A DNA stretch of 64,000 nucleotides from a virus. How positions within the stretch are numbered: the stretch's first letter is position 1; the number at the start of each line of letters is the position of its first letter. A model generated the notes under the pieces. It saw only the letters and a program-made list of their open reading frames with translations, did no database searches and was not told the DNA's origin. Below are positions 5,089 through 8,612 of this stretch, piece by piece. The translations under genes and the position numbers were made by a program. The stretch covers positions 1-64,000 of IMG/VR virus record IMGVR_UViG_3300042305_002088; one strand, written 5' to 3'.

Positions 5089-5170
5089 GGGTAGATCGCA
5101 TAGTGGCAATTGCCGAAGACTGTAAATCTTCTCTCTTTTGAGTTCGTAGGTTCGAGTCCTACTCTACCCA
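5089..5170 (+). tRNA. tRNA-Tyr(GTA)
   Basis: GGGTAGA/TCTACCC acceptor stem, GAAGA-CTGTAAA-TCTTC anticodon arm, long variable arm, TTCGAGT T-loop. Confidence 0.95.
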
Positions 5171-5184
5171 TTTTATTTTTAGAT

Positions 5185-5255
5185 TACCTCGTGGTGTAAT
5201 GGTAGCACAAGAGTTTTTGGCACTCTTTGTCATAGTTCGAGTCTATGCGAGGTAG
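5185..5255 (+). tRNA. tRNA-Gln(TTG)
   Basis: TACCTCG/CGAGGTA acceptor stem, AGAGT-TTTTGGC-ACTCT anticodon arm. Confidence 0.9.
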
Positions 5256-5298
5256 TTTTTAGTTGCATGTTCTAGCGAGTTCCGGTATATTATGAATC

Positions 5299-5484
5299 AT
5301 GAAATTAGATACAGCTATTCTCTTACTTCTTGCTTTTGGACTTATTGCCGGAAGCATTGTCTCAGAACTTCAGCATCGTCGAATTAAAGATTTGCAAACA
5401 CAAGTTGACGAGCTTAGAATCGTAGTTAATGAGAAATTTCTATCTTCTATGATTTTTGACAAATATAATTTAACTGTTCGATAA
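5299..5484 (+). CDS. small membrane-anchored coiled-coil protein
   Basis: N-terminal hydrophobic segment; promoter TTGCAT-17-TATATT just upstream. Confidence 0.6.
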   Translation: MKLDTAILLLLAFGLIAGSIVSELQHRRIKDLQTQVDELRIVVNEKFLSSMIFDKYNLTVR

Positions 5485-5524
5485 TATGGAAGATTTTGAC
5501 GGTTTAGGACTTTAATGATTTTCA

Positions 5525-5596
5525 GCTCTTATAGTTCAAAGGTTAGAACGGTCTGTTTATAACGGACGAATCTTGGTTCAAGTCCAAGTAGGAGCA
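5525..5596 (+). tRNA. tRNA-Ile(TAT)
   Basis: GCTCTTA/TAGGAGC acceptor stem, GTCTG-TTTATAA-CGGAC anticodon arm, CTTGG-TTCAAGT-CCAAG T arm. Confidence 0.88.
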
Positions 5597-6267
5597 GTTC
5601 TTAGGTAGCGCACCAATTTCCGAAAATGAACATCTGCAGCAAACTCAGGAGTACCTAATTTATGTTCAATAATAACATAATTGATATAACCACACTCTTC
5701 AATTGCTTTATACCTTAAATTGTCCCGATGTTTAATTTTATTAAGTAAACTAACACCAGCTATAGGTTTCCAGTGCCATGCACCGTTCCAATGTATAGCT
5801 ATTTTATAATCTGGTAAAATTATATCTGCATCAAAGCCATTAAACATTTTTTTATTTGTAATAATTTTTAATCCGTGATTGATAAGTTTTTGAGATAATA
5901 TTTTTTCGCCTTTACTTCGACTATTTCTTCTTTGCCATAAACCACCAAGTCGTTTTTCAGTCTCAATATTCACTCTTCTCTTTAATTCATTTCTACACTC
6001 TATACCACACATTGATACTCTAGAATATTTTTCATGATAAAATTTTTTATTGCAAATTTTACAAGTTTTAACAAAGACGTCGTTCTCTTTTGGAAATTTT
6101 CGCCCAATAAGATCAGCTCTTTTTTTAAGTGTTTCACTCTTTTTTAATTTAGTTAGTAAGGTTTGCGGACCTCTTTTAAGATTATTAAATATAGCAGAAC
6201 AAGTTTGAGAGCAAAATTTCTTACCATATTTACTGGCAATAATTTTATTGCAATTTATACAATTCAT
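5578..6267 (-). CDS. free-standing putative homing endonuclease: zinc-ribbon repeats plus a Vsr/DUF559-like nuclease domain
   Basis: CxxC...FCSxxC repeats; SKGEKIL...DADIILPDYKIAIHWNGAWH. Start 6267 follows a minus-strand TAAATA at 6273-6278. Confidence 0.75.
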   Translation of the reverse strand: MNCINCNKIIASKYGKKFCSQTCSAIFNNLKRGPQTLLTKLKKSETLKKRADLIGRKFPKENDVFVKTCKICNKKFYHEKYSRVSMCGIECRNELKRRVNIETEKRLGGLWQRRNSRSKGEKILSQKLINHGLKIITNKKMFNGFDADIILPDYKIAIHWNGAWHWKPIAGVSLLNKIKHRDNLRYKAIEECGYINYVIIEHKLGTPEFAADVHFRKLVRYLRTAPTWT

Positions 6268-6353
6268 ATTATTATTTAATGAGGCCATATAAAGGTTCAA
6301 GTACGTTCTTTGATAAAAATTTAATGGGGTGGTAGCTCAATGGTTAGAGCAGT

Positions 6354-6405
6354 TAAAGCTGGCTGCTTTGTATCGTGAGATACATTGTTTACAATATTAA
6401 AGTTG
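6354..6405 (+). ncRNA. 52-nt coreless group I-like mini-intron at tRNA position 28/29
   Basis: IGS AGCTGGCTGCTTT (6357-6369) pairs across the ligated junction AGAGCAGT|CGGCT with U.G at the 5' splice site; P2 TGTATC-GTGA-GATACA; ends in G6405; no P3-P8. Confidence 0.8.
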
Positions 6406-6413
6406 CGGCTCAT

Positions 6414-6625
6414 AATATTGTGACTTTATAGAGGGATCTATAATGAAAACTGGATGAATTCAGTGAAAGCCTAATAGGTCAACACTGAGCCAAGCTAAAG
6501 ATACATCTTTAGAAGGTGCAGAGACTACTGGAGAGGTTTAGTCCTCTTAATAACCAGAATTAGCGTCCGGCAACTCAAGTAGTTGAAGATATAGTCCACG
6601 GAGTTTGGTAACAAACACAAACGTA
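6414..6625 (+). ncRNA. 212-nt group I intron without an ORF at tRNA position 36/37; terminal nucleotide is A
   Basis: P1 TCAT/GTGA, P2 with GGGA loop, P3 CTGGATG/CGTCCGG, P4 TCAGTG/CACTGA, P7 GACTA/TAGTC, P8 CAACT/AGTTG, P9 GTTTG-GTAA-CAAAC, P9.0 ACG/CGT. Confidence 0.92.
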
Positions 6626-6671
6626 AATCGATTGGTTGTCGGTTCGAATCCGACCCGCCCCACCACTTTTC

Positions 6672-6743
6672 GGAATGGTAGCTCAACGGTAGAGCAGTAC
6701 CCTTTTAAGGTATTGGTTCTGGGTTCGAGTCCCAGCCATTCCA
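6672..6743 (+). tRNA. tRNA-Lys(TTT)
   Basis: GGAATGG/CCATTCC acceptor stem; GTACC-CTTTTAA-GGTAT. Confidence 0.95.
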
Positions 6744-6760
6744 AATTAAATAAACTTTAT

Positions 6761-6835
6761 TGACAAGTAGCTCAACGGTAGAGCAGAGAGCTGTTAACTC
6801 TCCGGTTGTAGGTTCGAATCCTACCTTGTCAGCCA
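6761..6835 (+). tRNA. tRNA-Asn(GTT)
   Basis: TGACAAG/CTTGTCA acceptor stem; GAGAG-CTGTTAA-CTCTC; encoded CCA. Confidence 0.95.
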
Positions 6836-6841
6836 CTTTTC

Positions 6842-6916
6842 GTCTCGTTCGTTCAACGGATAGGACAAGGCTCTTCTAAAGCCTCAATGTAGGTTCGATT
6901 CCTACACGAGACACCA
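6842..6916 (+). tRNA. tRNA-Arg(TCT)
   Basis: GTCTCGT/ACGAGAC acceptor stem; AGGCT-CTTCTAA-AGCCT; encoded CCA. Confidence 0.95.
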
Positions 6917-6960
6917 TTTCTATTTGCCAGTTCCTGCAATTTCCTCTAAATTAAAAATCT

Positions 6961-7098
6961 ATGCTTACTACACTACCGTTCGTTCTTTATATCGCCACTA
7001 CAATGCTTCTTTTTGGCTTTGTTTGTTATGCCATGGGGTATCTCAAAGGTCGTGATTACGAAACTATTGAGATCACTCGGGATAAAAAGACTAAATAA
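6961..7098 (+). CDS. 45-aa membrane peptide (below the ORF track cutoff)
   Basis: MLTTLPFVLYIATTMLLFGFVCYAMGYLKGRDYETIEITRDKKTK. Confidence 0.55.
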   Translation: MLTTLPFVLYIATTMLLFGFVCYAMGYLKGRDYETIEITRDKKTK

Positions 7099-7105
7099 AT
7101 TTAAC

Positions 7106-7177
7106 GTCGCCATCGTCTAACGGTTAGGACACATGGTTTTCATCCATGCAATCGGGGTTCGATTCCCCGTGGCGATG
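7106..7177 (+). tRNA. tRNA-Glu(TTC)
   Basis: GTCGCCA/TGGCGAT acceptor stem; CATGG-TTTTCAT-CCATG. Confidence 0.93.
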
Positions 7178-7179
7178 CT

Positions 7180-7442: not shown

Positions 7443-8612
7443 ATGTCTAAAATTCAATTACCAAAAAATATCGGTCAAGGAACGCCTGCTAAAATTCGTC
7501 AAGACGTTCAATACTTTGATACTTCCCATCACGGTTCGTTTTTTCCCTTTGGAATATATTTTACATCGACATACGGGGTAATGCCTTCTACAGTACATAT
7601 TAATAAAACCTATACAGAAGACTTAGTTTTCTTTTTGAGAGAGAAGGGTGAAATCTTTCAAGACTTAGTTTCTATATCTGCAGGGTCTCCTCGTTCTATG
7701 ACACTCAGTATGTACCAAGACGATTTTGAACTTGATGAACCGGAGTATAAAGGCACTTTTCTTTATAAAGACTGTGTTATAAATTTTACAAGAACAACGT
7801 CTCGGAAGCATAAAAAAGCTACTGATACTCCACCGCTTTTTAATATTTCCATTTACTACAAGCCAGGTACAAAACCACCTGTGAAAGACTTTGATAAGTT
7901 CTTGTACGAAGAAAAACTTAATAGTGTTATTCATACTATTTTTAGAGACGAGCATGGAGGAATTGTTTTTGAGCCTTTCGAAACTGTTGTCCCTGAAGGA
8001 TATACAGTAGAGAAATATTATACAAAAGACTTTCAACCTATGCACAAGCATATTGTTGAAACACTTAAAAAGAACGAATCTGGGTTGTATCTCTTTCATG
8101 GTGAACCAGGTACAGGTAAGACTACGTATATTAAACATTTGGCTAGTCTCATTAACCGGGACATGATTTACGTTCCTGTAGCATTTATTGACTCTCTAGT
8201 TGATCCATCTTTCTTGCCAGCATTACTTAAAAAGCGTCATTCAATTCTTGTTATTGAAGATGCCGAAAAAGCTCTATTAGCTCGAGAGCCAGGTGATTCA
8301 TCCTCCCTAGTTTCTGCTATTCTTAATATCACAGACGGTATTATGGGAAATGTGTTCTCGATTTCAGTCATTGCTACTTACAATTCACCGAGAGCTGGAA
8401 TTGATAAAGCTCTTCTTCGTAAGGGCAGATTAAAAGGTGAGCACAAATTTGATAAACTTCCTATCGAACAAGTTCAGCAAATTATTGATGATAATAAGAT
8501 TAATTTTACTGCTAAAGAACCAATGTCTCTAGCAGAAATATTCAACACTCAAGAACCTGATACTCTTACTACTAAGGAGCTGGTCGAGGAAAAAAGAATG
8601 GGATTCTTTTAA
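7443..8612 (+). CDS. AAA+ ATPase
   Basis: Walker A GEPGTGKT, Walker B LVIEDAE, SRH-like DKALLRKGRL. Confidence 0.9.
   Translation: MSKIQLPKNIGQGTPAKIRQDVQYFDTSHHGSFFPFGIYFTSTYGVMPSTVHINKTYTEDLVFFLREKGEIFQDLVSISAGSPRSMTLSMYQDDFELDEPEYKGTFLYKDCVINFTRTTSRKHKKATDTPPLFNISIYYKPGTKPPVKDFDKFLYEEKLNSVIHTIFRDEHGGIVFEPFETVVPEGYTVEKYYTKDFQPMHKHIVETLKKNESGLYLFHGEPGTGKTTYIKHLASLINRDMIYVPVAFIDSLVDPSFLPALLKKRHSILVIEDAEKALLAREPGDSSSLVSAILNITDGIMGNVFSISVIATYNSPRAGIDKALLRKGRLKGEHKFDKLPIEQVQQIIDDNKINFTAKEPMSLAEIFNTQEPDTLTTKELVEEKRMGFF

What the first reader, a model, noticed from the sequence alone, without database searches (positions are those of the whole stretch)
6326..6665. tRNA with two introns but only one ribozyme core: a 52-nt coreless mini-intron next to a group I intron
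Seen in sequence: a complete 76-nt tRNA(CAU) is recovered only by removing two inserts, 6354-6405 and 6414-6625, which leaves an 8-nt middle exon CGGCTCAT carrying the anticodon. The 52-nt insert has the substrate-side hallmarks of a group I intron. A 13-nt guide (AGCTGGCTGCTTT, 6357-6369) pairs without a gap across the ligated junction (P1 with AGAGCAGT, U6353.G6362 at the cut site; P10 with CGGCT). It also has a GNRA-capped P2 and a terminal G6405, but no P3-P8 core. The only core in the transcript lies in the second insert. Established: group I splicing needs P1 with U.G, P10, the terminal G and the P3-P7 core. Inference: one ribozyme core excises the dependent mini-intron in cis and then itself. 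I do not know of a described example.
Basis: partly seen in the sequence, partly recalled or inferred. Interest (0 to 1): 0.95.

Follow-up and report, generated by a model that had tools for sequence, protein, structure and literature searches.

The report
Coreless mini-intron beside a tRNA ribozyme
A phage methionine-tRNA gene is split by a normal self-splicing (group I) intron and also by a 52-base insert that carries only the guide half of such an intron; two phage lineages keep both, so one ribozyme may remove two introns, which I found no report of and which is untested.

Summary
Removing 6354-6405 and 6414-6625 gives a 76-nt tRNA-Met(CAU). Six intronless alleles at the same array slot in sister phages read exactly the predicted junctions.

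The second insert is a real group I intron (Rfam 89.9 bits) and the only core on the record. The 52-nt insert has a 13-14-nt guide that pairs across the ligated exon1/exon2 junction (5 of 20,000 shuffles do as well). It also has U.G at the cut, a GNRA-capped P2 and a terminal G, but no core.

The same two-insert layout occurs in four assemblies from two diverged lineages. All substitutions in the mini-intron keep its helices, three by compensatory change, and the exons still fold as a tRNA.

- An 11-bp conserved helix (6389-6399/6413-6423) buries the big intron's own guide and 5' splice site. This would force the mini-intron to be excised first.
- The big intron ends in A6625, not G. Earlier notes of this scan reported such A-ending tRNA-Met introns on other DNA. 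They did not report the mini-intron.

Best reading (about 0.5): a dependent, coreless group I mini-intron that uses its neighbour's core.

The parts
6326..6353 (+). tRNA-Met exon 1: acceptor 5' strand, D arm, nt 26-28. It ends in U6353, the -1 U of splice site 1.
6354..6405 (+). 52-nt coreless mini-intron, inserted in the anticodon stem between tRNA nt 28 and 29; ends in G6405
6357..6369 (+). Guide 1. The P10 strand AGCUG (6357-6361) pairs with exon 2 6406-6410. The P1 strand GCUGCUUU (6362-6369) pairs with exon 1 6346-6353, with G6362.U6353 at the cut.
6369..6384 (+). P2 of the mini-intron: 5-6 bp capped by GNRA loop GUGA (6375-6378; GCGA in L008). The closing pair U6369-A6384 becomes C-G in L043.
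6384..6395 (+). Alternative small hairpin AUUG/CAAU. It has a compensatory change in L008 and is mutually exclusive with the lock helix.
6389..6399 (+). 5' strand of the 11-bp lock helix 'Px'; pairs with 6413-6423
6406..6413 (+). 8-nt middle exon CGGCUCAU (tRNA nt 29-36, anticodon CAU). It lies in or at the loop of Px.
6413..6423 (+). 3' strand of Px: U6413 (the -1 U of splice site 2), the P10(2) strand 6417-6419 and guide 2 GUGA 6420-6423
6414..6625 (+). 212-nt ORF-less group I intron at tRNA site 36/37. Helices:
- P2: 6426-6443
- P3: 6450-6456/6564-6570
- P4-P6: 6460-6516
- P7: 6521-6527/6592-6597, with the G-binding pair G6523-C6596
- extra hairpin domain between P7 and P3': 6528-6557
- P8: 6572-6584
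- P9.0: 6598-6600/6622-6624
- P9: 6603-6616, with GUAA loop
The last nucleotide is A6625.
6626..6665 (+). tRNA exon 3: nt 37-76 including the encoded CCA
5578..6300 (-). Free-standing Vsr/HNH-like nuclease gene directly upstream of the split tRNA. It is a possible homing partner of the ORF-less cassette. It is absent in L008, and a distant relative lies beside the cassette in L043.

Best explanation
The 52-nt insert is a dependent group I mini-intron. It keeps the substrate half of a group I intron: a P1 guide with U.G at the cut, a P10 guide, a GNRA-capped P2 and a terminal G. It has no catalytic core, and it is excised by the core of the full group I intron 8 nt downstream in the same transcript.

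Proposed order of events:
1. In the precursor, the 11-bp helix Px (6389-6399/6413-6423) hides the big intron's own guide and 5' splice site. The core is therefore free to dock the P1-P2 stack of the mini-intron.
2. Guanosine attacks after U6353.
3. G6405 enters the G-site and P10 aligns exon 2, so exon 1 is ligated to exon 2.
4. Loss of the mini-intron dissolves Px. The weak P1 of the big intron (CUCAU/GUGA) can then form, and the big intron splices itself out after A6625.
5. The product is tRNA-Met(CAU).

Shown here: the anatomy, the exact junctions, conservation and covariation of the helices, and a single core per contig. Inferred: every chemical step, the cis use of the core, and the order.
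For: (1) Junctions. Six intronless alleles at the same slot have no break at either site, and four of them read exactly the predicted ligated sequence around both junctions. The boundaries of insert 1 are unique: U before and G at the end.

(2) Guide. It gives 13-14 contiguous pairs across the ligated junction, matched by only 5 of 20,000 shuffles. Duplex energies are -21.8 kcal/mol for the guide on the ligated exons and -10.6 for P1 alone.

(3) Distribution. The same architecture occurs in four assemblies from two lineages: window and L008, and L043 and L021. Their flanking genes are unrelated.

(4) Substitutions. The mini-intron differs at 8 positions plus indels between lineages, and no helix is broken.
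- U6369-A6384 becomes C-G.
- U6397-A6415 becomes C-G; this pair spans the mini-intron and the big intron.
- U6385-A6394 becomes C-G in L008.
- The remaining changes are G-C/G.U/A-U switches or lie in loops.
- The L2 loop stays GNRA.

(5) Independent prediction. RNAalifold predicts P1(1), P2(1), Px and P2(2) as four consecutive helices.

(6) Energetics. Px is -8.1 kcal/mol against -1.9 for the big intron's own P1.

(7) Exons. They stay tRNA-like in both lineages, with compensated acceptor, D and anticodon stems. The gene is therefore under selection as a tRNA, and both inserts must come out.

(8) Core count. There is exactly one RF00028 core per contig, always 8 nt from the mini-intron.

(9) Geometry. 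The distance from the U.G pair to the GNGA tetraloop is about 13 stacked layers in both P1-P2 stacks, in both lineages (counted by hand).

(10) Chemistry. Engineered trans-excision-splicing shows that group I cores can cut an internal segment out of another RNA and ligate its flanks (PMC2532722).
Against:
- Only four copies exist, which amount to three distinct sequences. The counts of covariation in the mini-intron are small: three double changes.
- P1(1) and P10(1) show no double change, because their exon strands are fixed by the tRNA.
- I found no P9.0-like pairing for the nucleotides before G6405.
- How the mini P1-P2 stack reaches the active site while Px and P2(2) stay attached is unknown. 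Px could occupy the P1 cleft itself.
- The big intron lacks the terminal G, so even its own second step is unorthodox.
- The records are 11-49% complete, so another core elsewhere in the genomes cannot be excluded.
Confidence: 0.5

Rival explanations
1. Dead remnant. The 52 nt are what is left of an older full group I intron, or an inverted copy of the anticodon-stem region. They are not removed, the tRNA gene is a pseudogene, and the cassette persists only as a selfish, co-converted unit.
For: - Phage tRNA-Met is probably dispensable, because sister phages differ in tRNA content and L043 carries a second, intact tRNA-Met(CAT).
- Only two lineages carry the insert.
- The guide differs from a perfect inverted copy of the exon sequence by three transitions.
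Against: - All substitutions in the mini-intron preserve pairing, three of them by compensation.
- The exons differ at 12 of 74 positions between lineages, yet every tRNA stem is kept.
- No full-length ancestor was found in IMG/VR by three pattern scans.
Confidence: 0.15
2. Same chemistry, different path. After the exon1-exon2 ligation, the freed 3'-OH of G6405 attacks splice site 2 in place of free guanosine. Px then serves as the substrate helix, because its 6389-6399 strand spans U6413|A6414. The two introns would leave as one joined RNA.
For: - Px pairs continuously across splice site 2.
- In L043 the partner of U6413 is G, which is a wobble pair as in a P1 helix.
- G6405 would already sit in the G-site after the ligation step (inference from standard group I chemistry).
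Against: - In the window and L008, U6413 pairs with A6399 and not with G.
- The big intron keeps its own guide GUGA with U.G and a P2, as in relatives without the mini-intron.
Confidence: 0.1
3. The insert is removed, but not by the neighbouring core. It would be removed either by a second group I ribozyme encoded in the unsequenced half of the phage genome or in the host, or by protein nucleases plus an RNA ligase.
For: The records are 11-49% complete. T4-like phages often carry RNA repair enzymes (own knowledge, not tested here).
Against: - The mini-intron and the core are linked at 8 nt in both lineages, and the Px covariation ties them physically.
- U.G, P10 and a terminal G are group I signals and not protein-nuclease signals.
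- No small self-cleaving ribozyme family matches the region.
Confidence: 0.1
4. Assembly or sequencing artefact, such as a collapsed or chimeric first intron.
For: None found.
Against: Four assemblies, three of them from metagenome samples with different identifiers (the window's own sample is not known to me), show the same layout with lineage-specific substitutions.
Confidence: 0.01

Closest known systems
Group I introns after the CAU anticodon of bacterial tRNA genes (Azoarcus tRNA-Ile 'Ile2.5Ug' and related classes; Williams 2020, bioRxiv 10.1101/2020.01.27.920355)
   Same: The big intron sits at the same site (36/37). It uses CAU with U.G in P1 and has a full P3-P9 core.
   Different: - It is in a phage. 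A 2014 review says all phage group I introns then known were in protein genes (PMC3984707).
- It has an extra hairpin domain between P7 and P3'.
- It ends in A. In Williams's survey 98.5% of raw calls had a U-1/G-omega pair.
- It is accompanied by a second, coreless insert in the anticodon stem. All catalogued tRNA group I introns are in the anticodon loop.
Trans-excision-splicing ribozymes (engineered Pneumocystis, Tetrahymena and Candida group I ribozymes; PMC2532722)
   Same: A group I core excises an internal segment that has no core of its own and ligates the flanks.
   Different: These are engineered and act in trans. Their guide sequences sit on the ribozyme, whereas here the guide sits on the excised segment and the core is tethered in cis.
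Degenerate group I introns of lichen-fungus rDNA (bioRxiv 10.1101/2021.05.01.442275)
   Same: They are group I-derived introns that lack the sequences needed for catalysis, yet they are removed in vivo.
   Different: - They are about 300 nt long and lie in nuclear rDNA.
- The machinery that removes them is unknown and assumed to be host-encoded.
- There is no adjacent helper ribozyme.
Group III / mini group II introns of Euglena plastids, and twintrons (own knowledge, not checked here)
   Same: They are shrunken introns thought to depend on catalytic parts supplied by other introns. Twintrons also show ordered removal of neighbouring or nested introns.
   Different: The chemistry is group II. 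These introns are not found in tRNA genes, and no shared-core pair 8 nt apart is known.
Alternative 5'-exon pairing P(-1) versus P1 in Tetrahymena pre-rRNA (own knowledge, not checked here)
   Same: A helix that competes with P1 controls when the 5' splice site becomes available, as proposed here for Px.
   Different: Here the competitor strand belongs to another intron and leaves with it.

Membership tests
Group I intron (RF00028): big intron 6414-6625 | Conserved P3-P9 catalytic core | tested here: met
   cmscan gives 89.9 bits against a gathering score of 50, over the full model. P3-P9 pairs are kept, several (P4, P6, P9, P9.0 and the extra hairpin domain) with double changes, in 4 copies.
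Group I intron (RF00028): big intron 6414-6625 | U.G wobble at the 5' splice site in P1 | tested here: met
   U6413.G6420 followed by A-U, C-G and U-A. It is conserved in all copies.
Group I intron (RF00028): big intron 6414-6625 | Terminal guanosine (omega G) | tested here: not met
   - Intronless alleles place the 3' boundary at A6625, or at A/A/U if slid.
- L043 and L021 have no G within 12 nt upstream of the 3' splice site.
- P9.0 (ACG/CGU, becoming AUG/CAU) ends right before position 6625.
- The relative L039 has G in that column.
Group I intron: mini-intron 6354-6405 | P1 with U.G, a P10 guide and a terminal G | tested here: met
   G6405 is conserved in all four copies
Group I intron: mini-intron 6354-6405 | Own catalytic core (P3-P9 with a G-binding site) | tested here: not met
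   After the guide, the 52 nt hold only P2 and one further short hairpin or strand. Rfam finds no family match, even at E-values up to 10. It therefore works like the substrate half of a group I intron but is not a self-splicing member.
Catalogued tRNA group I intron classes (anticodon-loop sites 0-7 of Williams 2020) | Insertion within the 7-nt anticodon loop | tested here: not met
   The mini-intron lies between nt 28 and 29 of the anticodon stem. The big intron does meet this feature, at site 5.
Archaeal/eukaryal protein-spliced (BHB) tRNA introns | Bulge-helix-bulge at both junctions, plus a splicing endonuclease in the host | not tested
   This was checked by inspection only. Junction 1 lies at the end of the P1 helix and junction 2 in a loop. 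The virus is T4-like, so its host is presumably bacterial. No formal BHB scan was run.
Small self-cleaving ribozymes (hammerhead, twister, pistol and others) | Match to a family model | tested here: not met
   No match at E-values up to 10 in 6300-6440

The most novel reading that the evidence does not exclude
A natural two-substrate group I ribozyme. One catalytic core removes first a 52-nt coreless 'client' intron from the anticodon stem and then itself. A lock helix contributed by the client sets the order. It would be the group I counterpart of the helper-dependent mini group II introns.
Probability: 0.45. Interest if true: 0.92.

Novelty: new variant of a known kind. Interest (0 to 1): 0.85.

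Why it matters
If splicing occurs as proposed, this would be the first natural group I-type intron I know of that has lost its ribozyme and lives off a neighbour's core.

- At 52 nt it is far smaller than any self-splicing group I intron.
- It would be the first such intron in a tRNA stem rather than the anticodon loop.
- It would show that a natural group I core can serve more than one pair of splice sites, with a built-in RNA switch to order the events.
- It would give a living example of the step 'intron loses its core and depends on outside catalysis'. That step is invoked for the proposed descent of protein-spliced tRNA introns from group I introns (PMC6125680 abstract) and of spliceosomal introns from group II.
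- It is directly testable with a 340-nt transcript.
- The A-ending big intron also challenges the terminal-G rule.

Tried and rejected
- **More copies:**
  - Viral-contig pattern scans returned only the three known contigs (L021, L043 and the L008 contig, in various combinations; the window's own record is not returned). One search also returned seven chance hits inside a coding region of an unrelated phage family (L054-L060).
  - The genome-contig scan gave four chance hits in coding DNA.
  - The metagenome scan with the neighbouring AAA protein added intronless alleles and a duplicate of L008 (L017), but no new copies.
  - GenBank phages match only parts of the core.
- **Covariance model:** a model of exon1-mini-exon2-P2(2) (R1) found no further modules in 42 loci that hold related introns.
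- **Terminal G of the big intron:** I considered G6623 as its terminal G. I rejected this because it would leave two extra nucleotides in the anticodon loop, it is A in L043, and it pairs in P9.0.
- **Amber suppressor:** a CUA-anticodon product from shifted splice sites was rejected because it lacks both U.G and P10 support.
- **P9.0-like pairing before G6405:** none was found.
- **Origin by duplication:** the mini-intron's P2 region loosely resembles the big intron's P2 region in the window, but not in L043, so I did not pursue origin by duplication.
- **P2.1 hairpin against Px:** both have one compensatory change each. The consensus fold prefers Px, and they may be alternative states.

Full report
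**What is there.** The window belongs to a 103-kb IMG/VR virus record, about 49% complete. It carries T4-type replication genes. A tRNA array lies at 5089-7178.

Between tRNA-Ile(UAU) and tRNA-Lys lies a stretch that ARAGORN does not call. Its ends, 6326-6353 and 6626-6665, are the two outer parts of a tRNA. Joining 6326-6353, 6406-6413 and 6626-6665 gives a 76-nt tRNA-Met(CAU) with an encoded CCA and four regular stems. Rfam's group I model matches 6402-6618 at 89.9 bits, and this is the only such core in the record.

**Are the exon boundaries real?** I fetched 17 related loci through the AAA-ATPase gene just downstream. Six of them carry an uninterrupted tRNA-Met(CAU) at the same slot. Four of them (L002, L003, L004, L006) read ...GCAGTCGGCTCATAATCGAT..., which is the sequence predicted by removing both inserts; L009 and L010 differ in the anticodon stem.

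This fixes insert 1 uniquely as 6354-6405. It is preceded by U6353 and ends in G6405.

For insert 2 the repeat AAT allows four placements. All of them end in A or U, so the big intron has no terminal G. Three further observations place the last intron nucleotide at A6625:
- A 3-bp P9.0 (A6598-C6599-G6600 with C6622-G6623-U6624) covaries to AUG/CAU in the second lineage.
- That lineage has no G within 12 nt upstream of the splice site.
- A relative without the mini-intron (L039) has G in exactly that column.

Earlier notes of this scan had reported A-ending tRNA-Met introns in other phage genomes. I reached the same conclusion independently for this lineage.

**Is the mini-intron more than chance?**
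- The guide 6357-6369 pairs with AGAGCAGT|CGGCT without a gap, with U6353.G6362 at the cut. It reaches 14 nt if G6370.U6345 is counted.
- Among 20,000 shuffles of the insert, 5 give a junction-spanning guide of 14 nt or more.
- The duplex with the ligated exons is -21.8 kcal/mol.
- The guide is followed directly by a 5-6-bp P2 with a GNRA loop.
- No Rfam family, including the small self-cleaving ribozymes, matches the region even at E = 10.

**Relatives.** The same two-insert layout occurs in three other assemblies:
- L008, a sister phage whose neighbouring protein is 84% identical.
- L043 and L021, a second lineage found through a scan for the core pattern.

In the second lineage the flanking genes are unrelated to those of the window, and the tRNA body differs at 12 of 74 positions. 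Its doubly spliced product is again a regular tRNA-Met(CAU). The acceptor, D and anticodon stems carry compensated differences.

Each contig has exactly one group I core. Two related introns at the same tRNA site, L039 and L041, carry an ORF, end in G and have no mini-intron. No further copies and no full-length version of the first intron turned up in five viral-contig scans, one genome scan, one metagenome scan, GenBank phages or a covariance-model search.

**Structure and covariation.** On the four-copy alignment, my helix set is paired in 98.9% of cells. Sixteen pairs change on both sides, and none of 500 shuffles reaches these values. With four related rows this is indicative, not a probability.

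Within the mini-intron the two lineages differ at 8 positions plus two indels, and L008 differs at 3. None of these differences breaks a helix:
- G6349-C6366 becomes G.U.
- G6347.U6368 becomes A-U, following a compensated D-stem change.
- U6369-A6384 becomes C-G.
- The L2 loop stays GNRA (GUGA or GCGA).
- U6385-A6394 becomes C-G in L008.

RNAalifold, run without my model, predicts four consecutive helices: P1(1), P2(1), an 11-bp helix I call Px (6389-6399 with 6413-6423), and P2(2). In Px there is one double change, U6397-A6415 to C-G, and three one-sided changes that keep pairing.

**What Px implies.** Px pairs the 3' part of the mini-intron with three elements of the big intron: U6413, the P10(2) strand and the guide GUGA (6420-6423). 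While the mini-intron is present, the big intron's own P1 (-1.9 kcal/mol) is therefore outcompeted by Px (-8.1 kcal/mol).

Topologically the whole 6354-6625 then looks like one group I intron with a long 5' domain of P1, P2, P2.1 and P2.2. The 8-nt exon and G6405 sit in the loop of 'P2.1'.

This gives a simple ordered pathway, all of it inferred:
1. The core first accepts P1(1).
2. Exon 1 is joined to exon 2.
3. The mini-intron leaves and takes its Px strand with it.
4. P1(2) forms and the big intron splices.

The order makes sense for a client that needs the core in cis. If the big intron left first, the mini-intron would be stranded.

Two details fit a shared docking site:
- From the U.G pair to the tetraloop, both P1-P2 stacks count about 13 layers in both lineages. 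The split is 8+5 or 7+6 for the mini-intron and 6+7 for the big intron (hand count).
- Both L2 loops are of the GNGA type. P8 offers a CU:AG step and P5 a CC:GG step opposite the GUAA loop of L9. These match the tetraloop-receptor preferences I recall from Costa and Michel. This is a lead from memory, not a test.

The terminal A of the big intron might also reduce exon skipping, that is, exon 1 attacking the distal 3' splice site. That is speculation.

**Rivals.**
- *Decayed remnant in a dead gene.* This fits the rarity of the arrangement and the dispensability of phage tRNAs. L043 has a second tRNA-Met(CAT). But it does not explain the substitution pattern or the intact exons.
- *A variant pathway in which the 3'-OH of G6405 attacks splice site 2 through Px.* This cannot be excluded. 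It predicts a joined intron RNA.
- *Removal by another ribozyme or by proteins.* This is possible because the genomes are incomplete. It does not explain the 8-nt linkage or the Px covariation.
- *Assembly artefact.* This is excluded by four assemblies.

**Comparison with the literature.**
- Williams's survey of 5,292 tRNA group I introns tested only anticodon-loop sites, and 98.5% of its raw calls had U before and G at the end.
- A 2014 review states that all phage group I introns then known lay in protein genes.
- Engineered trans-excision-splicing ribozymes show that the chemistry is feasible.
- Lichen rDNA holds degenerate group I introns that are removed by unknown machinery.
- Six full-text searches found no report of a coreless group I mini-intron paired with a full intron, or of two group I-type inserts in one tRNA gene.

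**Verdict.** No splicing data exist. I rate the dependent mini-intron at about 0.5 and its interest as high.

Noticed in passing
window 6598-6625; L043 and L021 equivalents: The full group I intron ends in A rather than the near-universal G, in all four copies. The ORF-bearing relative L039 has G in the same column. The G-binding pair G6523-C6596 is unchanged.
   Followed up: yes
window 5578-6300 (-); L043 9202-10395 (+): A free-standing Vsr/HNH-like nuclease gene lies next to the ORF-less double-intron tRNA in both lineages. The two share a nuclease core (38% identity over 55 aa, E 8e-6). The gene is absent in L008, where tRNA-Ile abuts the split tRNA. This may be collaborative homing of the cassette.
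   Followed up: partly
L032, minus strand, around 8158-8247: A related group I intron appears to interrupt a tRNA-Leu(UAA) gene between the D arm and an intact anticodon arm (P1 GACAU/GUGUC). That site is also outside the anticodon loop.
   Followed up: no
L002, L003, L004, L006, L008, L009, L010 (e.g. L008 8940-9030 and 8803-8888): Sister phages carry 91-95-nt tRNAs with a long variable arm and anticodon UAU ('Ile'), and L002 and L008 also one with anticodon UUG ('Gln'). The window has ordinary 72-73-nt versions at the same slots. tRNA genes in this array are being swapped between types.
   Followed up: no
L043 8217-8291: The second lineage has an additional, uninterrupted tRNA-Met(CAT) about 430 nt upstream of the split one. 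The two CAU tRNAs may have different roles (elongator, initiator or Ile2).
   Followed up: no
L010 20471-20926 (-): A more distant relative of the window phage encodes a tmRNA (Rfam 121 bits).
   Followed up: no
L039 and L041 (5' exons near reverse-complement offset 4473 of L039 and offset 2682 of L041): ORF-containing relatives of the big intron sit at the same 36/37 site of CAU tRNAs in other phages. They have a terminal G and no mini-intron.
   Followed up: partly
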